NCBI RefSeq assembly: GCF_006345805.1
Contig: NC_042999.1
Location: 75,206,001 to 75,270,000, forward strand
Reading direction: 5' to 3'
Origin: Octopus sinensis
Taxonomy: Eukaryota
DNA length: 64,000 nt
The first letter of the stretch is position 1. Each line of letters opens with the position of its first letter. This document shows positions 7,314-55,699 of the stretch, one piece after another. The position numbers and the translations under genes are program-made. The notes below the pieces were generated by a model, which worked only from the letters and a program-made list of their open reading frames with translations, had not been told where the DNA came from and did not search any database.

Positions 7314-7379
<66 letters not shown>

Positions 7380-7597
7380 TCAATATAGGGTGGCAAAAAA
7401 TTTTGTAGAATTTTTTTGCCACCAGCGGCCTAGTGGGAAAAAATTAAATAGTCATAGACCATTTTCAAGTTCAACATCACAATCAAGGAACGGCCATAAT
7501 AGGCCATTCACCCACTAGAAATAACAGCCAAAGCTTCAACCGCAAAATAACATCAATTCCGTAAACCAGGAGAAAATTAAAAAACATTTACCCTGTA

Positions 7598-7704
7598 ATT
7601 TCTTATACGATTCACCGTTTCATCTACTGTTTAATGGTAAACTAACCTGATTAAATTAAATCAAGCCAATCTTCCATAGGCCCTTAGAATCATCAGTAAG
7701 AAAT
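7598..7704 (-). ncRNA. Type I hammerhead ribozyme motif with extended stem II (also 8085-8191, 8572-8678, 9059-9165, 9546-9652)
   Basis: Minus strand: AUUUCUUA-CUGAUGA-U UCUA...UAGA U-GAAA-CGGU(GA/GC)AUCG-UA-UAAGAAAU. 8-bp stem I, intact core, GUA cleavage triplet. Confidence 0.8.
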
Positions 7705-10095
7705 AGCCAAGTCGGAACAGATATTTTCACGAGGCATTTTCGTCCCTGCCTCGGCAATATCTGACCTAAAATTTTCAAATCATCGCACTCGCGCCAAATT
7801 TATCGGCAGCAAATAAATATACGCCGCCGATTCCATTACGGAATTAACCAGAAAATTCATAATTAATCAATATAGGGTGGCAAAAAATTTTGTAGAATTT
7901 TTTTGCCACCAGCGGCCTAGTGGGAAAAAATTAAATAGTCATAGACCATTTTCAAGTTCAACATCACAATCAAGGAACGGCCATAATAGGCCATTCACCC
8001 ACTAGAAATAACAGCCAAAGCTTCAACCGCAAAATAACATCAATTCCGTAAACCAGGAGAAAATTAAAAAACATTTACCCTGTAATTTCTTATACGATGC
8101 ACCGTTTCATCTACTGTTTAATGGTAAACTAACCTGATTAAATTAAATCAAGCCAATCTTCCATAGGCCCTTAGAATCATCAGTAAGATATAGCCAAGTC
8201 GGAACAGATATTTTCACGAGGCATTTCCGTCCCTGCCTCGGCAATATCTGACCTAAAATTTTCAAATCATCGCACTCGCGCCAAATTTATCGGCAGCAAA
8301 TAAATATACACCGCCGATTCCATTACGGAATTAACCAGAAAATTCATAATTAATCAATATAGGGTGGCAAAAAATTTTGTAGAATTTTTTTGCCACCAGC
8401 GGCCTAGTGGGAAAAAATTAAATAGTCATAGACCATTTTCAAGTTCAACATCACAATCAAGGAACGGCCATAATAGGCCATTCACCCACTAGAAATAACA
8501 GCCAAAGCTTCAACCGCAAAATAACATCAATTCCGTAAACCAGGAGAAAATTAAAAAACATTTACCCTGTAATTTCTTATACGATTCACCGTTTCATCTA
8601 CTGTTTAATGGTAAACTAACCTGATTAAATTAAATCAAGCCAATCTTCCATAGGCCCTTAGAATCATCAGTAAGAAATAGCCAAGTCGGAACAGATATTT
8701 TCACGAGGCATTTTCGTCCCTGCCTCGGCAATATCTGACCTAAAATTTTCAAATCATCGCACTCGCGCCAAATTTATCGGCAGCAAATAAATATACGCCG
8801 CCGATTCCATTACGGAATTAACCAGAAAATTCATAATTAATCAATATAGGGTGGCAAAAAATTTTGTAGAATTTTTTTGCCACCAGCGGCCTAGTGGGAA
8901 AAAATTAAATAGTCATAGACCATTTTCAAGTTCAACATCACAATCAAGGAACGGCCATAATAGGCCATTCACCCACTAGAAATAACAGCCAAAGCTTCAA
9001 CCGCAAAATAACATCAATTCCGTAAACCAGGAGAAAATTAAAAAACATTTACCCTGTAATTTCTTATACGATGCACCGTTTCATCTACTGTTTAATGGTA
9101 AACTAACCTGATTAAATTAAATCAAGCCAATCTTCCATAGGCCCTTAGAATTATCAGTAAGAAATAGCCAAGTCGGAACAGATATTTTCACGAGGCATTT
9201 TCGTCCCTGCCTCGGCAATATCTGACCTAAAATTTTCAAATCATCGCACTCGCGCCAAATTTATCGGCAGCAAATAAATATACGCCGCCGATTCCATTAC
9301 GGAATTAACCAGAAAATTCATAATTAATCAATATAGGGTGGCAAAAAATTTTGTAGAATTTTTTTGCCACCAGCGGCCTAGTGGGAAAAAATTAAATAGT
9401 CATAGACCATTTTCAAGTTCAACATCACAATCAAGGAACGGCCATAATAGGCCATTCACCCACTAGAAATAACAGCCAAAGCTTCAACCGCAAAATAACA
9501 TCAATTCCGTAAACCAGGAGAAAATTAAAAAACATTTACCCTGTAATTTCTTATACGATGCACCGTTTCATCTACTGTTTAATGGTAAATTAACCTGATT
9601 AAATTAAATCAAGCCAATCTTCCATAGGCCCTTAGAATCATCAGTAAGAAATAGCCAAGTCGGAACAGATATTTTCACGAGGCATTTTCGTCCCTGCCTC
9701 GGCAATATCTGACCTAAAATTTTCAAATCATCGCACTCGCGCCAAATTTATCGGCAGCAAATAAATATACGCCGCCGATTCCATTACGGAATTAACCAGA
9801 AAATTCATAATTAATCAATATAGGGTGGCAAAAAATTTTGTAGAATTTTTTTGCAACCAGCGGACTAGTGGGAAAAAATTAAATAGTCATAGACAATTTT
9901 CAAGTTCAACATCACAATCAAGGAACGGCCATAATAGGCAATTCACCCACTAGAAATAACAGCGAAAGCTTCAACCGCAAAATTTATTTGCTGCCGATAA
10001 ATTTGGCGCGAGTGCGATGATTTGAAAATTTTAGGTCAGATATTGCCGAGGCAGGGACGGAAATGCCTCGTGAAAATATCTGTTCCGACTTGGCT

Positions 10096-10202
10096 ATTTC
10101 TTACTGATGATTCTAAGGGCCTATGGAAGATTGGTTTGATTTAATTTAATCAGGTTAATTTACCATTAAACAGTAGATGAAACGGTGCATCGTATAAGAA
10201 AT
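10096..10202 (+). ncRNA. Type I hammerhead ribozyme motif in the inverted end of the 487-bp array
   Basis: atttctta CTGATGA ttcta...tagat GAAA cggtgcatcg TA taagaaat, read directly on the + strand. Confidence 0.8.
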
Positions 10203-10319
10203 TACAGGGTAAATGTTTTTTAATTTTCTCCTGGTTTACGGAATTGATGTTATTTTGCGGTTGAAGCTTTGGCTGTTATTTCTAGTGGGTGTATGGCCTA
10301 TTATGGCCGTTCCTTGATT

Positions 10320-10428
<109 letters not shown>

Positions 10429-23879: not shown

Positions 23880-25165
23880 CGAGGGGCGTTAAATAAGTAA
23901 TGCCCCTGATCCACTTCCTATACCAGTAGAGCAACGAAACTTGGCACAGTTATTAGTCTTTTTCTACATAGGAACCACCCAGAGTTACGTATTTCTCCCA
24001 TCATTTGATGCAGCTCTGGGGACTGTCTTTGTAGAAGACTCCAGCTTGGTCCTCCAACCACGACCTGACTTCAGAAATCAAGGCTGCATCATCTGGGAAA
24101 CGCTTTCCTTTCAAAAATAACTTTATGGCTTGGAAGAGGTGAAAATCAGAGGGTTCAAGGTCAGGAGAGTAGGGGGGATGGGGGAGGAGTTCATAGCCGC
24201 ACGCCTGTGCTTTTGATCTGGCGACACGCGAGTTGTGGACCGGAGCGTTGTCCTGCAGGAGGAGGATGCCTTTACTGATCTTGCCCCGCCTCTTGATTTT
24301 GATAGCTTCTCTTAATTTCCTCAAAAGTGAAGCATAATAGGCTCCTGTAATTGTGGTATCCTTTGCCAGGAAATCTGTCATCACTACTCCGTTCTGGTCC
24401 CAGAAGACTGTGAGCATGACCTTGCCAGCGGAGGGCTGCAATCTTGCCTACTTTACAGGAGGTGAGTCACAGTGCTTCCACTACATTGACTGGGCTTTGG
24501 TCTCTGGATCATAGTGTTGGACCCAGGTTTTATCCTGTGTGATCAGTCTTTTGAAAAATTTTGACTCATCTTCTTGGCACATCTCCAAATTCATCCTCGA
24601 GCACTCGACGCGTTCTTGCTTCTGGAAAGGTGTGAGCAACCTGGGAATCCATCTGGCAGACACCTTTTGCATATGCAAATGGTCATGAATGATAGTTTCC
24701 ACAGACCCGGTACTAATCTTGACCCCATGGGCTATTTGGCGAATAGTTATGCGTCGATCTTCCAAATGGCAGCCTCAACTTAACGGACAGATGCCTCATC
24801 AATGGCAGAAGGGGGGCGACCAGATCTGGGAGCTGTTTCCACAGAGTTCCGACCATGTTTGAATTCACGATGCCAGCGTTTTACAAGGTCATATGATGGG
24901 GCATCATCACCATAAGTTACTCTCATTTCATCAAAAGTCTCCCATGGTGTGCGTCCTTTCAAATACAAAAACCGGATCACTGCTCGACACTCAACAGGTT
25001 CCATTTCACACTTGACTCAGTACAAACACCTGTAAATCAGAAACCACAATTAATTCAGAGCTGTAAGTTGCCACTTAATCTATAGAGATAATTGCACATG
25101 CAAAATCTCAGCTAGATCAAACAACTGCAAGTGGGTGAGGAGCATTACTTATGGAACGTCTCTCG
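23880..25165 (-). mobile_element. Full-length (1286 bp) mariner DD34D transposon, transposase disrupted
   Basis: TA-flanked TIRs starting CGAG; transposase split over ORFs 24780-25004, 24481-24765, 24001-24441 with WIPRLL, QDNAPVH and HPPYSPDLEPSDF motifs. Confidence 0.95.
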
Positions 25166-25455: not shown

Positions 25456-28400
25456 ATGAGTAAAGAAGTCAACTCTGAAGAAATAAAAAAGGAAATTATT
25501 TTTAAAGAATACTTCGGCAAAGATGGAGAACCTATGCCTGTCTATCAATATAAAGGACACAATATTGTGTATTTAGAAATAGCAGCGTCAGCTTTATCGC
25601 AACAACATATGGTGAAAATTCGACCTGATGATATGTTGATGCTTTCCTATCCTGCAGCCGGTAAGATTTTACTATATCGCTATTGTTAGGCAAAATATTT
25701 TACATTGTAGACAGGGTGTGTTTGCATGTCTCTGTATGATGCTCATACGTGCATTATTTGTTTGTGGTTGTGTAATTTATTTACATATTTCCATTCAACA
25801 TACTCTATGTACCCTTCATTCACTTTGTTATCCTATATTTACTTGGTTCGCAAAGATGAATATATTTCCCTATTTTTATTTATTTCCTTTGTGTCAATTT
25901 CTTCCCTTGCGTGTGTGAGGATTTTTTACGCGTCTGTGTGCACTTGCGTATGCATATATATATGGGTATAAACGATATTTGTACATATGTCGATGCTTTT
26001 GACTTGGGGCTGTCTTGTGTAGCTGCCGGGATACCCCTGAGTGTATGCGTGTATTATTCGAGTTCATATGACTTATCGTTTTTCGGCTTTATACCTCTCT
26101 CGACTAGTTCCACTTTTTCAGATTAACCATAATAATTATCGGCTTCAATACCAACACCATCGTTGACAACACCAACACATACACCAACTGTGGCACTCAC
26201 TTCTATTCATTTGTTTGTTATTACCATCACCAACGACACGCATACATCTATCATCATACTTCAACGTCAACACTGTCGTCTTCTGACTCGACCAACACCC
26301 AATCTAAAGGCAGCAACTGTATCATTATCGCCAACAGCATTTTTCTCCCCACCTTCACCATGTTCCAAATTCCGAACATATGCAAGTTCAATTCTGCATG
26401 ACAAGCTGTGTTGCTTTGTTTATGTTCCTGTAACATTAGCAGCTAGGGGGAAATAACTGGTAGAATAAGTACCAGGCTTCAAACAAATAAGTACTGGGAT
26501 CGATTCGTTTGATTAAAATTCTTCAAGATGGTGTCCCAGCATGGCCGCAGTCTAATGACTGAAACAACTAATTGTTAGACATAATTCTAGAGCAGTCTAT
26601 GGTTGGTTCATACTTTATACAGTGTCAATGTAGGAGTGTTTAGATATTTGCAGAGTCTGTGTTATGTTGCTGTTAGCAGAGGTGGTGTGTAAAATGTCGT
26701 GGGTTGTTAAAGAAGACTGTAGAATGTAGAGGGGATGTATGGAAGATACAATATTGATAATACGGTATTAGCAGGATTCCTGGTAGAATAAGATAAATTT
26801 ATCTACTTGGGAACAAGTGATGAATATCGCCGCTAAAATTTCCATTTCATTCTGTTGTTGATGCTCTGTCTTTCATCTTCCACAGATAGTTGACAAGGGT
26901 TGTGTAAATAATGTTATCATGACTCGTATTTGTAATATCTTTCCTTAAACGCTCCCACGCACATGCCTCTATATCTATTCAGAGAGCTCCTACCTCTGCT
27001 GGTAACAGAGGGCCTCTCACTCAGAGTAAAATATAGACTGTATGATACATGTGCGCGAACAGCCATGCTACTCGGCGGTGAAACATGGGCTGTGACAGCT
27101 GAGGATATGCCGTTGGCAGATTAAAATCACCATTCGAACGTGGCCGATGCCAGTGCCACTTCACTGGCTCCCATGCCGGTGACATGTAAAAAGCACCATT
27201 AAATAGTGGCCGATGCCAGTGCCGCCTGACTAGCTCCCGTGCCGGTGGAACGTAAAAAGTACCATTCGAGCGCGGTCGTTGCCAGTGCCGCCTGACTGCC
27301 GCCTGTGCCGGTGACATCTAACAAGCACCATTCAAGCGTGGCCGATGCCTTTACCGCCTGACTGGCTCTCGTGCTGGTGGCATGTAAAAAGAACCCACTA
27401 CACTCTCATAATGGTTGGTGTTAGGAAGGGCATCCAGCTACAGAGACATTGCCAGATTGGATTGGACCTGGTGCAGCCTTCTGGCTCACTAGCCCTCAGT
27501 CAAATCGTACAACCAATACCATCTTGGAAAGCTGGCGTTAAACGACAACGATGCCGCTGCCTCTATTCATTTTGATCGTTTCTCATAGATTGGTTGAGTT
27601 TACACTATCGACTTCTGATACAGAAGTCGATAGTGTGTGTGTGCTCTAGGACTCTTTTCTGTGCTCGTGTTGCACACGGAAGAATATGGACAAGTAAATC
27701 AATTCTATGATTTTATTTCTGACAAAAGTATATTAGACACTGAACATTAAATCACGTATTGCAATAACATAGGAGTTCTTTTTCAGCATTCACGGCCTTA
27801 TTACTCACTTAATTTTGCAAACCTTTTAATTTTACAAATTCATTTAATTTTATAATTGGAGAAATTTTGAACGCTCAACAATTATTCTTCGACTATTGAA
27901 ATATTAGATTTAATTTCCGTAAATGAATATATATGATCACCAAATAGAAGCAACTATTCATTACTACTGTCTTAGGTCGTCAGAAAGATTCATATTTATA
28001 CATTTGTTTTAATAGCTAAGATTGTATATCACATTTCAGGGTCCCATTGGATGTTTGAAATCGTTAATATGATATCGACAGGAAACACTGAAAACGTTTC
28101 TTTGCTAAAAGAAGACTTACTGCTAGATTGGTCACCATTTGAAAAGCTGGATTCCTTTGAATCCCCTCGACTCTTGAACTCTCACTACACTCCTGAACTT
28201 CTGCCTGCAGAATTGCTAAAGGATCATAAAATTATCTTCCTCAACCGCAATCCGAAAGCTATGCTGGTGTCGTTCTACAGACATATTTTAGACGTTAATT
28301 TGTTGGACTACAAAGGAGATTTACCAAGCTATTTTGACCTTTGGATGCAAGGAGATGGTAAGCCTATAAAGTTATTGTTACTACTACTACTACTGCTACT

Positions 28401-31400
28401 ACTAATGCTGTTTTTCATCCTCTTACATTTCCATAATTTTGGTTTAGGATATTACTGTCATGTTGGTTCAATTTCAAGCTTCACAGTTGGTCTACTCGAC
28501 CTTTGTATTCATGGAGTACCTTATTTTATCTTCTCATCAGACCACTTCCCCATTATTATATTCTTTTCCTTGTGGATTCTCATATTCTCTCAACACTTTG
28601 TATTTTATGTTCTCTTACCGATATTTTCTATCTGGTCATAAAATACATATCAAGTCGTGCCATTTCATTTTAGATTATATCAGTGCAAGTATGTGATTAG
28701 AGCACATTTTATCGATTTCGATGGTGAAAACCAAAGTATATTCTGATATCAGTTTAACTAAGTACAGATTAAATACAATGTTCAGAGATTTCAAAAGCAT
28801 TATATCAGAAAGTTCATATTTTATTAAACTTTGTTACCTACTATCAATCACCTCTGTTGTATGCACAGACATGCCATCAATATGACTTTGCAAATATCTA
28901 TCCTAGATACACTAATGAAAATATATAAATTTAATAAATTCGCTCTATAATCGTCTGTAAAACATATAACTTTGTGCACCTTTCTTCAGCAACATAAATA
29001 CCAGAAAAAAAACCCCCAGTAAAAAGATGCCAAATATATTTTCGTTTTAAACATTGCATTGCATTTATAGTTTAATTTAACAAAGGGGTTGACTATTCTT
29101 TTGGAAGTTATTACACGAACATAACTTCAATTTATTCTTTTAATTTTTCAGTTCCTTATGGTGATTACTTTAAATATGTTCAGGAAATTTATGCTCTATG
29201 TAAAGATAACCCAAATGCACTTATCGTAACTTATGAAGAAATGAAAGCGGTAATTACATATTAATATTTGCTTTAATTATGTTAATTATTATAATTTATT
29301 TCATGTGTTAGTTTCTCCAGTATACACACACACACAAACACAAAATGAACAATGACATCATAATTATGAAGTTTTGCTTCTAAATAATTCCGATTGGTAA
29401 AGTATGATTATTGTATAATTATAATAATTGTTGTACGTGTGTATAACAAAATATTTTAAAGTTAAATAATGAAAATTTCGCAATTTGACTTTATTATTTC
29501 TTTTCAACAGGATATATCCAAGGCAGTGTCCCGTGTTGCTAAGTTCTTGGGGAAAACAATTCCTGAACAACTTACGAAGAATATTGTTGATAAATGCTCG
29601 TTTGATAAAATGAAATCCGAGAAAAATCTTGTTAGTTCGTATTTACCCCAAGATACATTTGTCGGTGGCGGTTCTATCTACCATACTGGTAATTATGTTC
29701 ATATTTTATTTGATCAAACTTTCTAGCAGTTTAATTTCTATAAAGTCTAAGACACATATGTAGTCCTGGTAGAAGCTTATTTTCGCTGTTATTCTATGCT
29801 GTAGCGATCCGAGCACTACTCATATCAAGGAAAGAGGACCGCATGACACACCAATTAAACTAGAGTAGCACTCAGCTAGAACCCTCACTGTCGCTCCAAA
29901 TTCTAGGACTCGCAATTGCAAAGGAGTGAGTCCTACAATAGAAAATGACCCTACATCTGGGATTGTGCGGTTGCTATGCACATATGTATCCTTGAAGACA
30001 TTAACGAAAAGTCACTCGACTAAATGGAATTGAAGCCACAACAAAATGCTCCAATCATTAGTCTTCATTCTGTCTTTTCTTTCGCTTTTATAATGGCTTC
30101 TGATTCTTGGTGCTGATTGCTTTGCATCTGTACAATTCAGGCACGTATATTTTCACCTCTAGTAAACTTACACTTTGTCCTCGCCATTATGTTCTGGTCA
30201 TTTTCTCCAGAATATCCCCATTCTGGAATTTCACAGCCTGTGTTTTTCCTGGAGATATTGAACTGCAAAAGAGATAAAAATAATTCTTTCTATTGTAGGT
30301 ACAAGGCCTGGAATTTGAGGGGAGGGGTATAGTCGATTACATCAAGACCAGTACTTGACTGGTATTTAATTTATCGACCTCGAAAGAACGAAAGGCAAAG
30401 TCGACCTCTGCGGAATTTGCACTCAGAACGCAGTAGTAGACGAAATGCCACTAGGCATTTTGCTCGGTGTACTAACGATTCTGCCAGTTCGGCGCCTGAG
30501 ATAAAAAGAGATAAAAATAATACCATAACATCCAATTACTGGTTAACTGTATCCATAATCTGTTTAATATACTTGATCAGTATTTTCAACTCCTGTAGGA
30601 ACATTTTTCTTCTAAACGATGACCCATCTCTGTACATATAATTGAATGCTGAGTGTTGCAGAATTGCTTCCTGGGGTTACAGCTCGGATTCAATTCCATT
30701 TTATACTTTATGGATATACTAGCAGTATAGCCCGGCATTGCCCGGGATTAAGTTAGGATTATTAAGTGATCTAACGCTTTATTTCAAACCAAAATAAGTG
30801 ACACCGACATCAAATTTGAGCGAAATCCGTTGAAATTGGTAAACGTTTGGCTGAAAATCGGTTGCTGGCGATTTCATTGGGAAATCCTATAAGGAATCGG
30901 TTTATCGATTATTTCCACTCATCGATTGTTTTTTTTTTCCGGAGAACTTAAAGCATTCAAAGATCCCATGAGTCCTAAGTAATGCTGGCAACAAGTTTGG
31001 GCAAAATATGTCAAAATTGGTAAAAGTTAGAGTTTAAAATGGTGTGTAGCCAATTTTAGTGGGAAATACTATAAGGAATCGGTTTATCGATTTCTAATCC
31101 TGATTGAATGGAAGACTCCAAATGGATACCTGCCACCGATAGAGTTTGGACTTGGGATTTGTTGGTGGACATGGCGAAGTATGGTCTCACCGGGAACTGC
31201 GATCTGCGGAAGTTAAACGGTATGTCTGACCCCGAAGGATACAGCTGCATCCTTGAAATGAAAACATTTTCACCCCTCCCGCACCCTGTATCAATGGTGG
31301 CCTCAATCAAGTGAGGTGTCAGGGACTTGATTACTAAGCGCGTCCCGTTGCACTGTTTACGCGGAAGTAAGTTTCTGATTAGCATAATTGGGCATCCAAC

Positions 31401-32507
31401 CCTTAGCCTAAGAATGCGAGGTGGAAGCCCTGCTGGCTCCAATGAGTTGAGAAACTCGATAGGGTAATTGGCAATATCTTGGGGGTCAGAGGTCCAGTCA
31501 ATCGATTTGTAAATGCGCTCCTCACTCGGAATTCGGCTTATGAGCTGGTCGTTGATAGCACTGACAATTACGTTTTTTGGGGCCAGGATAGTTCTTCCAC
31601 TGAGCCAATTGAAGTCTGTTCCAGATTGGAGAACACTGTTTCTAAAAGATCGGAAGGGTTGTCCAAGGTGTTGCACAGTTCAGAGACGGATATGTCGCCC
31701 CTATCATTCCTAGGGACCTTGCCTTCTCCAAGGGCTAATATGTCTTCAGCAAATGCTGCAGACATGCTATCACCAAGCAAGTGCGCACGCATGTTTGTGC
31801 TTAGGCTTAAGGTCTTAACCTGGAGCCACAACGTGGATGACTAAAGGCATGCACGCACTTCATCAGCCCGACTCTTTTTTAGGGATGACAGGAAGGGTTT
31901 GCCGGAAATCTCCTGAAAACAATAGTCACACCACCCATAGAAGCTGTATAATCCTTGAAACCTTTCAGTGACCGGTCCAATGCCTCAAGGGCAGCTTCTT
32001 GGTCATTGAACATTCGTCCCATAGAATGAGACGGCACTGTCTAAGAATTTCACCTTCCTCTGCATTTTTGCCAATGATGCAAGTAGGAACCTCGGACCTC
32101 ATCAAATGTAAAAGAAGTTTGAATGCCGAGTGCGCCGTCCTACCTCCCGGCAATAATGTAGCAGCGATTCCCGAGGAAGCAACGGCTAGCGCAATTTGTT
32201 TCTCGCGATGAATCTTAGCAAGTATCAATTGCATTTTAGAATCATCACAGCAGTCTGCTGTGATGATTCTAAAATGCAACACATAAATACGTAACAATAT
32301 ATCTTTTTCTACTCCTCTGAAGAGATTTTGTCTAGTATAATGATTTTAATAATTCCTATTCAATCTTTTAAGGCTTAGTTGAAACAGCCGTAAGAGACTG
32401 TTTGACTTTTGCAGATAAAATTTTATTAAATGCTACATCTCTATTTTCTTTTCGTTTAAATGGTTATATATGTGTGGGTGCGTGTATGTGTATTTATTTA
32501 AGACTGT

Positions 32508-33371: not shown

Positions 33372-34545
33372 TTCATTCAATTACGTAAGAAATTTTCAAG
33401 TCAATTAAAAACATGCAAAAACGTATATTGTCAGTACATGCTTCTTTCTTGGCTCAACGATAATTTTTAAATCTACGTTTTGATATTGTAATCATGACTC
33501 AATAAATTTGTGTGAAACAAAATGCACATTTATTATATCTCGATTTTTATTTGGAACCCTATGAAAGTTTCCTCAACATACTGTATGTAAAATGTAATAT
33601 CTGATTTTGTAAATGAACTCTCTACAAACCCACATGCAGCATACACCTATTTTGCTTGAGCAGTTATGTTTGTTTTTCTACATAAACATTATACTATTTT
33701 ATCATATACCCCTCTAAAAAGGAAATAAAATTTATGCATAGATATGTATTATCTGATGGCTCTAAGTGTATTCATACCTATTATCGCAATGTTGTTTCTG
33801 TAGTGATCTAAGTCTGTTGAGGTGTATCAGGATCTAGGTTTCTGCATCAGCAAAATATGCATTTTTTAAAAATAAGTAAAAAAAAATCTGAAAATCGGCT
33901 ATAATAATGTAGCCCTCCAGTCTCATTGCTTTGAAGTCATGATGTTGTGGAAAGAAAACTTGGGGAAAAAAGTTACAGAGGTTTAAAAATCGAAAAAACT
34001 GGGTATTTTTAGTCAATAGCGAGACAGAAATCTTCTGCACTTAGCGGAGCGATGTCAACTTTAAGGTTGCACCCAGTAAAATCTATAGTTTAGCGTCTGA
34101 CCTGTTCATTGTAGGCTTCTTAAATAAATAGAAATACCAAATTTGAGTAATGTTTTCATGCTTGGATTTGTAAACTATGGTAAGAATAACACTCGCCAAC
34201 AAAGTATTTGTCCCAAAGAATACCTGTATTTTATATGTTATTGCAAGCAGAATTCAAAAATGATATCAGATTTTCTGTATCATCCATATCACTACTGGTA
34301 CTTTAAACTCTTCGGCCTTGTCATTACTGGTACTCTAAACTCTTCGGTTGCATATTTGTGTGAGTAAAATCGTTTTTATTTTTTCGAATAAAAAAGTCTA
34401 ACTTTATTTCTTGTTTTGCCGGTGTCTCAAATATAGATTAAATCAGTGTTTCTCAAAGGGTCGGACAAGTTGTTTTGAGAAAATTTGGTTTAAATGTTTG
34501 ACAACTCAGCACCGTCCTTTGGACGGGCGGTGTTTTTCTCGTATG

Positions 34546-34581
<36 letters not shown>

Positions 34582-34603
34582 TGTATGTATGTATACTTGC
34601 ATG

Positions 34604-34645
<42 letters not shown>

Positions 34646-34649
<4 letters not shown>

Positions 34650-36299
34650 CCCCCGATCCCTTATCTGGTGGGCGATGCGGAAACTGGAGATTGACGAATG
34701 GTTAATAAGGGCTGTACAGGCCCTATACAGAGAGGCCGTTAGTAAGGTTAGGATTGGCAACGAATATAGTGAAGAATTCCGGGTAGAAGTAGGGGTCCGC
34801 CAAGGTTCAGCCCTCAGTCCCCTTTTATTCATCATAGTCCTCCAGGCAATAACAGAGGAATTCAAGACGGGTTACCCCTGGGAGCTCTATGCCGATGACC
34901 TGGCCCTCATAGCAGAATCACTACCGGAACTAGAAAAGAAAATTCGGGTGTTGAAGCTAGGTTTAGAATGAAAAGACCATAGAGTCAATGTAGCAAAGAC
35001 CAAAGTTATAGTAAGTGGGAAGGCGAACTCATCACACACCCTCAGGTCGGTGGCCCTGCTCGATCTGTAGAAAAGGTGTAGGTAGAAACTCCATAAGATG
35101 TACCCAGTGTAAGCTATGGACGCACAAGAGGTGCAGCAACATCAAAGGAAAATTAACCGAGAAGATAGCTTTCGTGTGCAGCAGATGCACAGGTGCAATA
35201 GACACCACAGATACGCAGAAAACAGATTCCATCACACTCCAGGGGAAGAAACAAGAAGTAGTTGATAGTTTCCGCTACCTAGGCGACCAAGTTAGTAATG
35301 GATGTGGATGCTCAGAGAGTGTCACCACTAGAATAAGAATAGTCTGGGCAAAGTTTAGAAAGCTTCTTCCCCTACTGGCGACAAAGGGCCACTCGCTCAG
35401 AGTGAAAGGTAGATTGTACGATGCATGTGTGCGAACTGCCATGCTTCACGACAGTGAAACATGGGCTGTGACTGTAGAGGTCATGCGTAGGCTTGAAAGA
35501 AATGAAGCTAGTATGATCCGCTGGATGTGTAATGTCAGTGTGCACACACGACATAGTGTAAGTGCCCTGAGAGAAATGCTGGACATAAGAAGCATCGGAT
35601 TTGGCGTGCAAGAGAGACGTTTGCGCTGGTATGGTCATGTACTACGGATGGATGAGGAGAGATGTATGAAGAAGTGACACTCCCAAACAGTTGAAGGAAT
35701 CCAGGGTAGAGGTAGACCCAGTAAGACATGGGATGAGGTGGTTAAGCATGATCTTCGAACATTGGGCCTCACAGAGGCAATGACGAAAGACCGAGATCTC
35801 TGGAGATATGCTGTGACTGCGAATACCCGTCAAATAACGTGAGTTCATGGTTGTTTCCTGCACCAGAAAATAACGTGAGTTGATGGCTGTTTCCTGCACC
35901 AGCTTCACATAGCAGCCCCAGCCCATCCAAAGTACCTTAGACTGCAGGACAGCCTACTGTGCTTACTTTGGATCGTAGGGCGACCTGCTGTGCTTGAGGA
36001 GACCTATTGAGTCAAGTACATCAACATCAAAATAAAAGTCAAATGAAATTGTAGTTATGATAACCGTGCTGGTGGCACGTAAAAAGCACCAACCGATCGT
36101 GGCCGTTGCCAGCCTTCCCTGTCACCTATGCCGGTGGCACGTAAAATTACCCACTACACTCACGGAGTGGTTGGCGTTCGGAAGGGCATCAAGCTGTAGA
36201 AACACTGCCAGATCAGACTGGAGCCTGGTGCAGCCTCCTGGTTTCCCAGACCCCGTCGAACTGTCCAACCCATGCTAGCATGGAAAACGGACGTTAAAC

Positions 36300-42115: not shown

Positions 42116-45100
42116 ATGAGCCCTGAAGAGATAAAAGCGGAAATAGAGAATAGTCGCTCTTTGGTGTATGACAGAGATGGCAACTTTACGGAATTTTATT
42201 ATTATAAAGGAATTCCCCTGCCAGGTGTTCCGACCATACCATCAGTGATATCAACCATTCAGAATTTTCCTCTAAGAGATGATGACATTTTCATCTGTGC
42301 TTATCCTACTGCTGGTAAGTTATGTATCTTACATTTTGCTGTAAAGTATCATACCAAACGAAACACCGCCTACTGGACAATTATCTTGTTTATGTAATAT
42401 CAATTTTATAATGAAGCTAATGTCAGTATGATTATATATATAATCAAAGTATTAGCAGTCTCTTACCTCATACTACACCCTTCTTACGTATTTCATATCT
42501 CATACTGCTTCTTACACCAGCCATCCCTCTGAAGTAATGAACAGACATAGCTCACACCTCTCAACGTTTCTTACATCACTGATCTTGAAGAAATGAGATC
42601 GAAAGTGTAAGAAAGAGGGAGTGAGATAGTTAGATGGGATGGGAAAGGAGGGTAAAATAGATTTTGGGTAAATTTTTAGATTAACATATGCACGATTTTC
42701 ATTAAGTAGCCTGACCGGATCTTTTTGGTTTGAACGGCAGTTTTTAACATAATTTCTAGGTAACTAAAACAATTTAAACTTCGTATACTGGTAGAATGTG
42801 TTTATAAAACATCATGGATCTTTTCCTTTTGAACGGCAGACAATTTCTAGTGAACTAAACACTTTAAAACTTCGTATACTGGTAGAATGTGTCAAAATAA
42901 AACATCATTTGGCAATGTTTCACTACAAACGAAACATTGCCCATTTTTTTCTCTTGGCTTTCTTGAGAAAATTGTAATTTGTTTGTTTAACGTAGTTTAA
43001 TTTTTCGAATTTTAACCAATCCTATGCTCTCTTTTGAGCTAAAATCATTTGCTGCGTTTAAAACTGAGACAACATCCTGTAACTAACCCTAAACCTCCCC
43101 CCTAACCCTAACCCTAAATTTTTTTTTCTCAATTGTTAAATTAATTTAATTGTTGCGCGTCTAAAAAAATCTAAAGCAATGGAATTAAATTAATTTAACA
43201 ATTAAGAAAAAAAATTTAGGGGGGAGGTTTAGGGTTAGTTACAGGATGTTGTCTCAGTTTTAGACACAACAAATGATTTTGGTTAAATGGTGGTAATCGA
43301 TTGGTTAAAATTGCCGAAATGCTCAGATTTTCAGACGAAATATCTTACAAACTATAGAATTTTCTCAATAAAACCAAGAGAAAATGATGTTTTATAAACA
43401 CATTCTACCAGTATACAAAGTTTAAAAGTGTTTAGTTAACTAGAAATTGTGTTGACATCTGCCGTTCAAAAGGAAAAGATCCAAACATCATTTTCTCTTG
43501 GCTTTCTTGAAGTTTAAAATTTTTTAGTTACCTAGAAATTATGTTAAAAACTGCCGTTCAAACCGAAGAGATCCCCCTAACCTCCTAATATGCTGAAAAT
43601 CCCACATTTTGGTTTGAAAAAAAAGGGGGTGGGCGAGGAGGAACCCCTGCTCCATCCTGGAATCATTTGCAGCATGTACTGCTGCAAAGAGTACTTGATT
43701 CCACATAAAAAATATGAGGGTTTTTTTTTTTTTTTTCTGAGTGAAAATCGTGTGGGAGTTAATCTAAAAATTTACTGATTTTTATTTTGTTTATTTTTAG
43801 CCAGGGTTGCCAATTTAGTGCTTTTTGAACTAGATTTAGAGATTCTTCTTTACTATCTTCAGTACGAAAATCTATTGAGTTACACATCTGCGTAAAGTTA
43901 GAGCTGTTTTATGATTTAGTGCTAAGTTAATGTCTTTTTATTACATGGAAAAATTCGAGCATGAAAAGTAATATTCTTAAGATTATAAACCTGGAAAAAT
44001 ACAGGACAAGTTATTACACCTGTAAAAGTATAGGACAAGCAATTAGTTCTAGTAAAGTAAAGAATAAGAAACTTTTTACTTAAAATATTGCAGCAAAGAA
44101 TGCCAGTTCTTCTAATTTATCCCTCTTTACAGTTCTCCTTTTAAAAATTTATTGTATATAACAGTTCAGCTAATTTGTAAGTTTGTCTAATTAGTCACTT
44201 TTTTGTGTATTTATGGTAGTAAATTAGCCAAATTCTACTTACATAAGTATAGTGTTATTTGTAAACTATAATAAAATAATTTTTAATATTCAAATTTTCC
44301 AGGTGTAATAACTTGTCCTGTACTTTTCTAGGTTGATAATCTTAAGAATATTATATTTCATGCTTGCATTTTTCTATGTAATCCATGATTTTTCCAGGCA
44401 TTGCTATTATAAGATAATTAATAATGTGTCAATAATTCAAGATTTTACCTTATAAAATACTAAAAGATAATATTTTAATTTTCCATGTAAGTGATGATAA
44501 TATTTAAATTTTTTCATACTTTTTACTCTTTTACTCTTTTGCTAGTTTCAGTCATTTGACTGCAGTCATGCTGGGCACCGCCTCTGGTTGAGCAAATCGA
44601 CCCCAGGACTTAATCTTTGTAAGCCTAGTACTTATTCTATTGGTCTCTTTTGCCGAACCGCTAAATTACGGGGATGTAAACACACCAACATCGGTTGTCA
44701 AGCGATGTTGGGAGGACAAACACAGACACCAAAACATATACACACACACATGCACACACATATATATATATGACGGGCTTCTTTCAGTTTCCGTCTACCA
44801 AATCCACGAGGCATTGGTTGGCCAGAGGCTATAATACTTTTTCTTTCTTTCTTTCCTTGCTACAGGTACACATTGGATATGGGAAGTAACTAGTATGATT
44901 GTCAGAGGGAAAGCCGAGAGGATTCCAAATGTTAAAGAAGAGTACATGCTGGATTTTATAGAATTTGAAAAATTTGAATCATTAGAATCTCCACGAGTGT
45001 TGAATTCCCATTTTCATCCAAGTTTTCTTCCTGAAAAGTTATTGAAGGACAATAAAATCATCTTTGTTGCACGTAATCCTAAGGCAGTAGCTGTCTCCTA

Positions 45101-47666
45101 CTACAGACACACTCTCGGCATAACAGAAACTCACTACAATGGAAATTTCCCTAGCTTTTTTGAGATGTTTATGAAAGGCGATGGTAAATACAAGTTCTCT
45201 TTTTTACTAAGTAGAAATTTAGCTTTCCAAACCCTACCTTTCCAAACCAGAAAGTTTCAATATAGCATTGTTGCTGTTTGACCCTCAACCAACTATGATC
45301 ATAGCTTTAACTTTGTGACATCCTGGCTTTTTCAACAGTAAAGTGTTAATTGACGGTGACTTGGCTGCTATTTGAAAAGGGCAGTGAAATGTATCATGGG
45401 AGAAAATAGTGTTGTTGCTGTTTTAATTATCAAACATAAAGTTCAAAGAATCATTTTAATGATATTGTTGTCCTACCTTAATTGTGACATTTATCTGGCA
45501 ATGAAACATAATTTGTAAGGAGAGTGAAGCATGCCTTGAAATATTTAATTTCTAATCATTTAGTTAATGAAAAGAAGCAGTACGGGATCCCATAGACAGG
45601 TAATATTAATGCAGTTGATATCCATAGAGAATACCTGCAGGGAAAACATGCAGTGAAAGGGATCCAGATGTCTGGTCTGAATGCTTGCAGAAATATGAAC
45701 TCCATTGAAGACACTCAAAGTTCACATAGTTGGATAAAGCCAGGTGGAATTTAAAGACAACCGCAAGGAAAATTTCAATATACATTAGCTAATGAAAGAA
45801 GTTAATACAATACTTCAAATGATCATTTCTTCAAAATGCGTCATATCCGTACCAGTTTCTAATAAGCACCAATTACTCAGTTTTGAGTTCAAATTCGGCC
45901 ATGACTGATTTGTCTTACATCTCTCTAAGCTCGGTATAATGAGCATGTTTCGTAGTATTTTATCTAATGACATTATATAGTAAGATGGTGTAACATTTAC
46001 ATTAAATCAAATTCTATACTTTCATCTGACAGATGAAAGTAGCCAGCAATGATTAGAGAGACGTCAAACATGATATTTACAGGAGCGCCCATCTCTGTTA
46101 AAAAGAAAAAATATCAAATTGTCACAAATACAATATTCTGTACTAGTAACTGTTATAGTTGTGTATACTTATAGTATGTGTGCAAAAAAGTAAGCTTTGT
46201 GATACACATGTCAATGGAAGAGGCCTTCTGCATTGATTGAGTTTGTAATAGCCAATGGCACATTTATATTTTTTTTGTATGTTACTAGGGACGAGGACTG
46301 ACTTGGTTATCCCTGCCAGTAAATGTAAAACGTACTTTCTATTTCATTTTGCAGTTCCTACAGGTGATTATTTTAAATACACAAAACAGTGGTGGCCAGT
46401 AATAAAAGACAAGCCGAATGCTCTGATAGTAACATATGAAGACGCTTCAGAGGTAAATATGTTATACACATGCGCACATATATCCATAGGTACATACATA
46501 CATGTATATATACATACATACATGTATACATACATACATGTATACATACATGTATACATACATGCATGCATACATACATACATACACACACACATATATA
46601 TCTATATATATAAAACTCAACTTGTGTGTCTGTGTGTTTAACTTCCCGGCACATCTCCTCCTAGCCAACAAATCATAGAATCACCAAAAATGGGTCACTT
46701 AAAGTTTAGGCGAATGAAAATTGAACTGCGCTATTTCTGTTCCGAAATTCATGTCGCAAGTGCAAAAATCGATAATGTGTTTGTTTAAGCCTTATCCCAT
46801 GCATTGAATAGTGAACTTTACTCAGTCAGCTGTTTGACGTGAACTGTGTTCATCACGCGTGCAAGCATGCGTAAATTGCATGAAAAATAAAAAATCAAGA
46901 TATAAAAACAAATCGCTGTAAACATTGTAGAAATTTGGCAAAGAAATGAATTTTCAGGATGATATAGCCTGGAGGGTTTTTTCGTATTAATCGTTTGGAC
47001 TTTGTGAACACATACCAATTGTTTTCATAAGATTTTTAACGCTTTGAATTAAATGTGACCATTTTGCGTTGAGTCTGCAGTTTGAATTACTTTAACCAAA
47101 TTTTAGCAGGCTGGATTTTTGATCATCACGATACATCGCCAGCGACTCCCTCAAACTCTCCCCTGAAATCCCTGTTGAGAAATCTATATATATAAAACTC
47201 AACTTGTGTGTCTGTGTGTTTAACTTTTGGATCTACCAAGTTTCATTATTAAGGATGGGAAATAGTGTGTAGCAAATCTATATATATAAAGCTGAAGTTG
47301 TCTGTGTGTGGCAGGTTTGGTAGCCTTCAACTAACACTATCTCCTTCGAGACCCTGCAGCGCAAGTTGACCAAAATTGAGAGTAGGATAGAAGAAGGCTT
47401 GCTCTTCATTCTGTAGAAGATAAAATTCAAAATCGGACCATGTTAACACCAAAAATTATTTACATCAAAAAGGTGCTTTTTTTTCTATGAAAATCCCTAT
47501 TTTTTACGATTTTTGACTGCTGTGTCACCATTTTTCGGTGTATTTCAACTGGAAAAATGTTCACTTGAAGAGAATAACAAGTTGCGTAATGCCAAATTTT
47601 TACTTTTCAAAAATTCCAATTCTAAAGAGTCGAAACAAACCCAAGCAACACCAGATGATACTGCTA

Positions 47667-53384: not shown

Positions 53385-55415
53385 TTATCATCATCATCAT
53401 CATTTAGCGTCCGCTTTCCATGCTAGCATGGGTTGGACGGTTCAACTGGGGTCTGTGAAGCCAGAAGGATGCATCAGGCCCAGTCTGATCTGGCAGTGTT
53501 TCTACGGCTGGATGCCCTTCCTAATGCCAACCACTCCGTGAGTGTAGTGGGTGCTTTTTACGTGCCACCCGCACAGGTGCCAGACGGAGCTGGCAAATGG
53601 CCACAAACGGATGGTGCTTTTTACGTGTCACTAGCACGGGGGCCAGGCGTGGCTGGCAACGGCCATGAATGGATGGTGCTTTTTACGTGCCACCGGAACG
53701 AGGCCAGTCGATGTGGCGCTGACAACGGCCACGAATGGATGGTGGTGCCAGACGAGTCTGGCAAACGGCCACGAACAGATGGTGCTTTTTACGTGCCACC
53801 GGCATGAGGCCAGTCGGTGCGGCGCTGGCAACGGCCACGAACGGATGGTGCTTTTCACGTGCCACCGGCACGAGGGCCAGGCATGGCTGGCAACGGCCAC
53901 GAATGGATGGTGCTTTTTACATGCCACCGGCACGAGGCCAGTCGGGGCGGCGCTGGCAACGGCCACATTCGGATGGATCTCTTACGTGCCACCAGCACTG
54001 GTAACTCAGCTGCAATTTCCATTGATCGATTTCAATTCTGATTCACACTTGCCTCAACAGGTCTTCACAAGTAGAGTTTTGTGTCCCAAGAAGGGAAGGT
54101 ATGCATAAGTGGGCTGACTACATCCCATGTAGAAGGCCACGGGTTATGGTCTCACTTGTCCTGCCAGGTCTTCTCGCGCACAGCATACTTCCAGAGGTCT
54201 CGGTCTCTAGTCATTTCCTCAGTGAGACCTAAAGTTCGAAGGTCGTGCTTCACCACCTCATCCCAGGTTTTCCTGGGTCTGCCTCTTCCACAGGTTCCCT
54301 CAACCGCTAGGGTGTGGCACTTTTTCACACAACTATCTTCATCATTTCTCGCCACATGTCCATACCAGCGCAAACGTCTCTCTTGCACACCACATCTGAT
54401 GCTTCTTAGGTCCAGCTTTTCTCTCAAGGTACTTACACTCTGTCGAGTATGAGTACTGACATTACACATCCATCGGAGCATACTGGCTTCATTTCTTGCG
54501 AGCTTACGCATATCCTCAGCAGTCATGGCCCATTTTTCACTGCCATGTAGCATGGCTGTTCGTACACACGCGTCATACAGTCTGCCTTTTACTCTGAGCG
54601 AGAGGCCTTTTGTCACCAGCAGAGGTAAGAGCTCTCTGAACTTTGCCCAAGCTATTCTTATTCTAGCAGTTACACTTTCAGCACACCCGCCCCCGCTGCT
54701 GACTTGGTCACCTAGATAACGGATGCTATCAACTATTTCTAGTTTTTCTCCCTGGAAAGTGACAGAAGTTGGTCTCAGAGCATTTTCAGTGTTTATTGTT
54801 CCTGAGCATCTGCCACATACAAAAACCATCTTCCTAGTTAGCCTTCCTTTGACATTGCTGCACCTCTTATGTGTCCATAGCTTACACTTGGTGCATCTTA
54901 TAGAGTTTCTACCTACACCTTTTCTACAGATCGAGCAGGGCCATCTACCTGAAGGCGTTTGTGATTTGTCTACCCTCCTACTTATTACGACTTTGGTTTT
55001 AGCTAGATTGACTCTAAGGCCCTTCAATTCTAATCCTTGCTTCCACACCTGAAACTTCTCCAGTTCTGATAGTATCTCAGCAATTAGAGCAAGGTCATCA
55101 GCATAGAGGAGCTCCCAAGGGCATCCTGTCTTGAATTCCTCCGTTATTGCCTGGAGGACTATGATAAATAGGAGGGGGCTGAGGACTGAGCCTTGGTGGA
55201 CCCCTACCTCTACCCAGAATTCTTCACTGTACTCATTGCCAACCCTCACCTTACTATCAGCGTCCCTGTACATGGCTCGCACAGCTCTCACTAACCATTC
55301 ATCTATCCCTAGTTTCCTCATTGACCACCAGATAAGGGATCGGGGGACCCTGTCGAAGGCTTTCTCCATGTCAACAAAAGCCAGGTACAGGGGCTTATCT
55401 TTGGCTAGGTATTTG
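53385..55415 (-). mobile_element. 5'-truncated RTE-clade LINE, open RT C-terminal half (ORF 54152-55489) plus repeat-rich 3' UTR
   Basis: AFVDMEKAFDRV, GVHQGSVLSPLLF, YADDL, RYLG, RRLRWYGHVAR, RGRPRKTW; (GAT)n tail at ~53385-53403. Confidence 0.93.
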
Positions 55416-55699
55416 TCCCTTTCCTTATTGGTAATGTATAATACAATATTCCCCTGAAGGACAAAAAATAAAAACAGAATGCAGTACACACTTCACCAGC
55501 TCAGAAGTGAAGCCAGTGATGCAGTAGAAAGTTACTTGAAACTATCAGATGTCAAATCATAATCGTAGTGGTAATGATGATGGTGATGAATGTTACCTTA
55601 CCTCAGTTTATGAGAGATGAGTTTGTGTAGAAACTCTGATTGTAATAGCAAAAATGAGGTTAGACCTTTAAGAAAGACATCTCGCCCAGTAATGGTTCA

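What the first reader, a model, noticed from the sequence alone, without database searches (positions are those of the whole stretch)
7598..7704. Hammerhead with a ~65-nt, G-U-rich stem II extension
Seen: between CUGAUGA and GAAA lies UCUA/UAGA, then AUGG/CCAU, then a 13-bp helix GAUUGGCUUGAUU / AAUCAGGUUAGUU with five G-U pairs. These pairs work only on the ribozyme-sense strand, which independently fixes RNA polarity. One recurrent variant (GA vs GC) falls in the stem III loop. Standard descriptor searches with short stem II limits would probably miss this motif (inference).
Basis: partly seen in the sequence, partly recalled or inferred. Interest (0 to 1): 0.75.

Follow-up and report, generated by a model that had tools for sequence, protein, structure and literature searches.

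The report
Pseudoknotted long-arm hammerhead retrozyme
This is a hammerhead-type RNA motif, predicted to cut itself, with an unusually long side arm and a base-paired knot that evolution has preserved; it sits in a 487-base non-coding repeat present thousands of times in this animal genome and likely copied by a Penelope-type jumping gene's enzyme.

Summary
The motif is real: an intact type I hammerhead core on the minus strand with 68 nt in stem II, inside a 487-bp unit (5.4 tandem copies plus an inverted arm, both ends in (TA)n). Relatives at 70-99% identity keep every helix by compensatory or wobble changes. Long stem II is the majority form in this genome (about 8:1 in a matched search) and also occurs in an active-looking Hydra-clade Penelope-like element with the same two-ended insertion footprint. 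Verdict: a new structural variant of a known class (non-LTR retrozyme); cleavage and expression untested. The scan noted similar elements earlier on other DNA.

The parts
7372..10324 (.). Whole insertion: 5.36 tandem 487-bp units (RNA sense on minus, 7372-9983) joined head-to-head to a 343-bp inverted arm (plus, 9982-10324)
7319..7374 (.). (TA)n target, left flank
10323..10427 (.). (AT)n target, right flank
7598..7709 (-). Type I hammerhead, the finding's copy, including the pseudoknot strand
7705..7708 (-).
7697..7704 (-). Stem I, 5' strand (8 bp with 7605-7598)
   Evidence: 5 of 8 pairs with double changes
7690..7696 (-). Core CUGAUGA
7685..7689 (-). U10.1 (mismatched with U11.1 at 7622) and basal stem II strand (pairs 7626-7623)
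7679..7682 (-). Stem II internal-loop pseudoknot strand (GGCC)
7634..7677 (-). 19-bp capping hairpin (one A.A mismatch, five G-U) with 6-nt apex 7658-7653
7606..7621 (-). GAAA, palindromic stem III and GUA; predicted cut between 7606 and 7605
7606..8092 (-). Predicted 487-nt monomer released by cuts in two adjacent units
   Evidence: inferred from unit spacing
8085..8196 (-). Hammerhead copy 2 (one stem I mismatch)
8572..8683 (-). Hammerhead copy 3 (GA loop variant, as copy 1)
9059..9170 (-). Hammerhead copy 4 (G8 to A, predicted inactive)
   Evidence: inference from core chemistry (recalled)
9546..9657 (-). Hammerhead copy 5
10091..10202 (+). Hammerhead copy 6 in the inverted arm; GUA 10192-10194
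7372..7475 (-). 104-nt 'tail' between the family's two fixed 3' ends (site A at unit position 383, site B at 487); the minus arm ends at B (7372), the plus arm at A (10324)

Best explanation
The sequence is a conserved type I hammerhead fold in a non-coding 487-bp repeat, predicted to self-cleave after GUA, likely as a dimer, and likely copied in trans by a Hydra-clade Penelope-like reverse transcriptase-endonuclease. How it would work: stem II is not one long helix but a 4-bp base, an internal loop and a 19-bp capping hairpin. The internal loop base-pairs with loop I (shown by covariation), which would hold stems I and II parallel as the loop-loop contact does in other hammerheads (inferred), compensating for a mismatched 10.1-11.1 pair. 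The hairpin closes and presents that loop; its G-U content is incidental. Stem III is a weak hairpin but a strong self-complementary 12-mer, so two adjacent units of a tandem transcript would form a double hammerhead, releasing 487-nt monomers that a ligase would circularise, while a lone circle would be slow to cut (inferred). The Penelope-like enzyme would nick (TA)n and prime on both strands at two fixed sites 104 nt apart on one template, giving two head-to-head arms (footprint shown, mechanism inferred).
For: Fold and covariation: 97.6% of 835 cells paired, 0 of 500 shuffles as high, slid controls 17-48%; 96.9% of 684 cells, 8 pairs with double changes. Basal helix seen as UCUA/UAGA, GUGU/ACAC, GCGU/ACGC, UCUG/CAGA, UCCG/CGGA. 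Pseudoknot: C-G to U-A, U.G to U-A or C-G, an extra G-C in L079/L082; a subfamily with GGCUU in stem II was predicted to carry AGCU in loop I and does; the distances of both strands from the core change together (12/7 vs 9-11/5). Stem III stays self-complementary in four variants, duplex -17.5 to -18.8 kcal/mol vs -0.4 to -5.8 for two hairpins. Mobility: dispersed young copies; 35 of 39 two-armed insertions end A+B, none A+A or B+B; 11 substitutions private to one of 17 loci are in every covering copy of both arms. Partner: an 899-aa Hydra-type ORF family (5,356 candidates; motifs match Hydra-1_Obim by eye) has a 55-nt stem II hammerhead and 8 of 8 two-armed insertions end A+B in (TA)n. 14 of 25 published Hydra hammerheads have the same U.U at 10.1-11.1 (PMC8557442 File S2).
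Against: No cleavage, RNA or circle was observed. 10.1-11.1 is a mismatch in most variants (A.A 13, U.U 12, A.C 10, A-U 10, G.U 1 of 46 types), which lowers activity in the axolotl case (PMC7229834); 8 of 9 Xenopus retrozyme dimers did not cleave in vitro (10.64898/2026.07.22.740005). The pseudoknot rests on few independent events, the MAFFT alignment treats the compensating A as an insertion, and one subfamily breaks its fourth pair (12 copies). Only 2 of 19 hairpin pairs show double changes, none within the closest clade. The unit has no alignable similarity to the Hydra or Neptune terminal repeats, so the partner is assigned by footprint. The window array itself is a mosaic of variants, not a clean copy of one template. 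5' ends near the cut are only weakly enriched (7 of 116, p=0.04, list includes alignment artefacts).
Confidence: 0.75

Rival explanations
1. The ribozyme cleaves efficiently as a monomer thanks to the pseudoknot; the palindrome in stem III is an inherited trait and the capping hairpin an inert insertion.
For: Stem III can form 3-4 bp plus a tetraloop in most subfamilies; invertebrate retrozymes cleave as monomers (PMC7229834); pseudoknots give high-speed cleavage (PMC3088659). Single copies tolerate insertions at the apex (rows at C1:93937685 and C1:125357100).
Against: The tetraloop changes UGCA to UAUA, two changes that keep self-complementarity a hairpin would not need; the apex is identical (6 of 6) in all five ~70%-identical relatives scored while the basal helix and loop match at 3-4 of 12.
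Confidence: 0.3
2. The repeat is the terminal repeat of an autonomous Penelope-like element I did not find, or is moved by a Neptune, Naiad or other family rather than Hydra.
For: Intact Neptune-type ORFs also insert in (TA)n; in Xenopus 24 of 57 retrozyme families match known transposons, 21 of the 22 being Penelope-like (10.64898/2026.07.22.740005); only top candidates were scored in my searches.
Against: No fetched clade locus showed the unit continuing into an ORF; the Neptune family tested has an 18-20 nt stem II and ended at one site with no inverted terminal arm in 10 loci with hits.
Confidence: 0.25
3. It is a satellite spread at the DNA level, and the hammerhead is a decayed relic no longer under selection.
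For: The 10.1-11.1 pair drifts freely; one window copy has a broken core; the whole unit folds well on both strands (z -6.0 and -7.4).
Against: Core invariant and helices compensated across young subfamilies; wobble changes fit one strand only; dispersed 5'-truncated insertions with fixed 3' ends in (TA)n.
Confidence: 0.07

Closest known systems
Metazoan non-LTR retrozymes (PMC7229834, parts 1-4 of 6 read, supplement unreadable; bioRxiv 10.64898/2026.07.22.740005, parts 1-3 of 5 read)
   Same: Non-coding, low-GC tandem units each with a type I hammerhead; U.U at the base of helix II as in axolotl HHR_Amex2; palindromic helix III; co-occurrence with Penelope-like elements.
   Different: 487 nt (170-400 in the first paper, 51-972 in the second); 68-nt stem II with a Watson-Crick pseudoknot instead of a 4-bp helix with canonical loop contacts; two-armed insertions with two fixed ends are not described in the parts read.
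Pseudoknotted type III hammerheads of toad and termite HDV-like RNAs and dipteran genomes (PMC7936874, section 3 part 1 read)
   Same: Short stem, internal loop with a GCC-type strand, capped by an extra hairpin, pairing with a GGC-type strand on the other arm.
   Different: There the extra hairpin (about 20 nt) is on helix I of a type III; here it is 44 nt on helix II of a type I: the mirror arrangement.
Hydra-clade Penelope-like elements and their hammerheads (PMC8557442: passages, section 11, supplement parts 1-2 of 59 and search hits)
   Same: (TA)n targeting, inverted 5'-truncated copy, tail at one end only, U.U at 10.1-11.1 in 14 of 25 listed Hydra hammerheads.
   Different: All listed Hydra hammerheads have short stem II (loops 3-10 nt); tail given as 30-40 bp vs 104 here; no ORF. 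Two Selaginella PLE-X hammerheads in the same table have 29-35 nt in loop 2, a precedent for length.
Poseidon element of Anolis, two internal priming sites (PMC11167929, parts 1-2 of 4 read)
   Same: Two fixed start sites for reverse transcription, AT-rich targets, both strands extended, protein predicted dimeric.
   Different: Autonomous element; its hammerhead needed the protein to cleave and was dispensable for insertion in vitro.
Hammerheads with stem I-II pseudoknots and U10.1-U11.1 (PMC3088659, passages)
   Same: Pseudoknot as the tertiary contact, in all three types; U.U is the best-tolerated mismatch.
   Different: Examples discussed there have short stem II; their descriptors (Text S1) were not read.

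Membership tests
Type I hammerhead ribozyme | Core CUGANGA, GAAA, NUH | tested here: met
   5 of 6 window copies intact
Type I hammerhead ribozyme | Three stems, stem I open | tested here: met
Type I hammerhead ribozyme | Purine-pyrimidine pair at 10.1-11.1 | tested here: not met
   U.U here; mostly mismatched in the clade; natural precedents exist (PMC3088659, PMC7229834, PMC8557442 File S2)
Type I hammerhead ribozyme | Tertiary contact between stems I and II | tested here: met
   as a covarying pseudoknot; not shown physically
Type I hammerhead ribozyme | Self-cleavage | not testable with these tools
   needs an in vitro assay
Rfam hammerhead families | Score above a family threshold | tested here: not met
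Non-LTR retrozyme | Tandem units each with a type I hammerhead | tested here: met
Non-LTR retrozyme | Non-coding, GC below 45-50% | tested here: met
   no frame of 120 aa inside the tandem arm; GC 0.36-0.37
Non-LTR retrozyme | Monomer 170-400 nt | tested here: not met
   487 nt; within the wider range of the 2026 preprint
Non-LTR retrozyme | Dispersed copies across the genome | tested here: met
Non-LTR retrozyme | Unit-length linear and circular RNA in tissue | not testable with these tools
   only contigs of runs with unrecorded library type were available
Non-autonomous Penelope-like element | Partial tandem plus inverted 5'-truncated copy, tail at one end, microsatellite target | tested here: met
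Non-autonomous Penelope-like element | Sequence homology to the terminal repeat of an autonomous partner | tested here: not met
   only one Hydra and two Neptune families compared
Pseudoknotted type III hammerheads of HDV-like RNAs | Type III topology with the extended arm on helix I | tested here: not met
   type I, extension on helix II; works alike, not a member

The most novel reading that the evidence does not exclude
A lineage-wide, unannotated hammerhead architecture: type I with a long stem II is the majority form in this genome, shared by Hydra-clade elements and their retrozyme parasites; in this clade the arm is a two-function module, a pseudoknot that gates catalysis plus a conserved hairpin that docks the Penelope-like protein, so that dimer-dependent cleavage, circle stability and two-site priming are coupled on one RNA.
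Probability: 0.25. Interest if true: 0.72.

Novelty: new variant of a known kind. Interest (0 to 1): 0.5.

Why it matters
Thousands of hammerheads in one genome escape Rfam and short-stem descriptors, so published counts for such lineages are likely too low. The clade supplies natural compensatory series for a pseudoknot in a mirror-image architecture, which can be tested in one afternoon. The young Hydra-type element and the retrozyme share a two-ended footprint in one genome, giving a defined enzyme-template pair for the open question of who mobilises animal retrozymes and whether the template is a circle.

Tried and rejected
G-U richness as a functional trait: rejected, 0-5 of 13 across subfamilies. 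A-to-I editing as source of the G-U pairs: no support, wobble positions alternate with G-C as often as with A-U. GA loop variant as recurrent: 3 matches genome-wide. Whole-unit folding as a polarity test: uninformative. Pairing of the internal-loop CC with the conserved downstream AGGG: considered, but only the loop I partner covaries. L1-style twin priming on a linear monomer: inner ends do not meet at site A and both arms can exceed one unit. Neptune elements as sequence parent: no similarity. A shared pseudoknot in the other long-stem families: not evident by eye, not claimed. Sequencing runs: no RNA holder listed; four runs laid were contigs, so no ends, strand or level. Literature: eight full-text searches gave no paper describing a long-stem-II pseudoknotted type I retrozyme; Lunse et al. 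2017 is not held (seen only as a citation and through the review PMC6765202), and the supplement of PMC7229834 (mussel hammerheads) could not be read; either may hold a precedent. The terms octopus and cephalopod were my guess; no call of mine names the organism. One search used a faulty pattern and was redone.

Full report
Observation. The segment folds better than all 200 shuffles (z -3.6), the other strand less so (z -2.2). Between CUGAUGA and GAAA lie 68 nt: a U.U mismatch, a 4-bp helix, a 7x7 internal loop and a 19-bp hairpin with one A.A mismatch, five G-U pairs and a 6-nt apex. Stem I has 8 bp, stem III 3-4 bp, and the cut is predicted between 7606 and 7605. Rfam finds nothing at gathering thresholds and no hammerhead among 10 weak hits.

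Context. The motif is in a 487-bp unit repeated 5.36 times (7372-9983), joined head-to-head to a 343-bp inverted arm, with (TA)n on both sides. Six hammerhead copies are present; one has G8 changed to A. The genome (G000, 2.72 Gb) holds 1,257 exact matches to this family's pattern against 0 for the control, 1,920 to a pattern for related subfamilies (control 0; not de-duplicated against the first), and about 70%-identical sister families make up most of the first 100 of 1,629 further matches (control 47).

Is the long arm real? On 30 aligned copies, 97.6% of 835 cells pair, above all 500 shuffles, with slid controls at 17-48% (related sequences can beat this shuffle, so the pair types matter more). 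The basal helix appears in five fully compensated forms. In the 19-bp hairpin 2 pairs change on both sides and 9 on one side. But the number of G-U pairs in the 13-bp stretch runs from 0 to 5: G-U richness is a state of this subfamily, not a feature. The apex is identical in all five distant relatives scored, while the basal helix and loop match at only 3-4 of 12 positions, a hint that the apex is read as sequence.

The pseudoknot. A GG upstream of stem I and a CC in the internal loop are near-invariant, and their neighbours covary: C-G to U-A, U.G to U-A or C-G, and a fifth G-C pair gained in one subfamily. When one search showed a subfamily with the loop strand changed C to U, I predicted an A in loop I; one search found it. 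Both strands sit closer to the core in the sister families. In an 18-sequence alignment the four pairs are 100% paired. Limits: few independent events, the aligner reads the compensating A as an insertion, and 12 copies of one subfamily break the fourth pair. An earlier scan note on another genome had mentioned a pseudoknot before I looked. The published analogue is the type III motif of toad and termite HDV-like RNAs, where an internal loop under an extra hairpin on helix I pairs with loop II (PMC7936874); this is the mirror image.

Stem III. The GA variant occurs 3 times in the genome, twice in this array. Otherwise the 12-mer stays self-complementary in four variants, including a two-base loop change; duplexes are predicted at -17.5 to -18.8 kcal/mol against -0.4 to -5.8 for two hairpins, and GA weakens the duplex to -9.2. 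This points to a double hammerhead, as described for tandem type I motifs (PMC4209133, PMC7229834).

How common is a long stem II? With identical flanks, 35-100 nt gives 7,581 matches (control 224) and 6-34 nt gives 959 (control 64), about 8:1; this covers one core and stem III pattern only. The hits fall into many unrelated stem II sequences of 44-77 nt that fold as interrupted hairpins.

Mobility. After dropping loci with an end under 80 bases from the edge and repeats of one site, 53 insertions were scored: 39 two-armed, of which 35 end once at site A and once at site B, none twice at the same site, 4 otherwise (two look like alignment drop-offs); 14 one-armed. In 17 loci, 11 locus-private substitutions are in every covering copy of both arms, against 102 single-copy and 5 partial ones, which suggests one template and, with both arms often longer than a unit, a circle or a homogeneous multimer. 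The window array is an exception: its variants are shared in a mosaic way. 5' ends near the cut are weakly enriched (7 of 116, p=0.04, with artefacts in the list).

Partner. Neptune-type ORFs are intact and insert in (TA)n but carry 18-20 nt stem II motifs, and the family tested ended at one site without inverted terminal arms. Its terminal repeat has a 55-nt stem II hammerhead, and 8 of 8 two-armed insertions end A+B in (TA)n. Published Hydra hammerheads share the U.U (14 of 25) but have short stem II. The unit does not align to either element's repeat above shuffles, so the assignment is by footprint. Two priming sites and extension of both strands were shown in vitro for another Penelope-like element (PMC11167929).

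Verdict. Shown: sequence, covariation, copy number, insertion footprint. Inferred: cleavage, dimer use, circles, the enzyme. It files as a non-LTR retrozyme with a hammerhead variant I did not find in print (eight searches; one key paper and one supplement unavailable). Interest 0.5.

Noticed in passing
window 7372-10324: Variants are shared in a non-nested way (one by unit 2 and the plus arm, one by unit 5 and the plus arm, GA by units 1 and 3): gene conversion, a mixed template or assembly mixing; unexplained.
   Followed up: partly
window 10002-10010 (+) and each unit: TTTGGCGCG upstream of the hammerhead is kept in the 70% sister and in a distant family in L067; it resembles an E2F site (recalled), a possible internal promoter.
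   Followed up: no
L220:3238-5934: Young, abundant Hydra-clade Penelope-like family with intact ~900-aa ORFs that Pfam does not recognise and a long-stem-II hammerhead.
   Followed up: partly
L062, L065, L063, L075: Two intact Neptune-type families; one has a U3-A8 hammerhead core, the other U.U at the base of a short stem II.
   Followed up: partly
L067:6760-7850: A distant ~490-bp two-armed family with a 51-nt stem II of unrelated sequence but shared terminal motifs.
   Followed up: partly
window 27976-28641 and 44835-45281 (+): Sulfotransferase-domain coding segments.
   Followed up: no
window 54152-55492 (-), 34402-35677 (+): Reverse transcriptase fragments followed by a PHD-like finger.
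   Followed up: no
window 31056-31679 (-), 24001-24447 (-): Pif1 helicase fragment and DDE transposase fragment.
   Followed up: no
window 27123-27395 and 53550-53998: GC-rich 63-66 bp tandem repeats that look related and oppositely oriented.
   Followed up: no
runs X1-X19: The unit is held by runs of four coded organisms from six studies, so the family is not confined to this assembly.
   Followed up: partly
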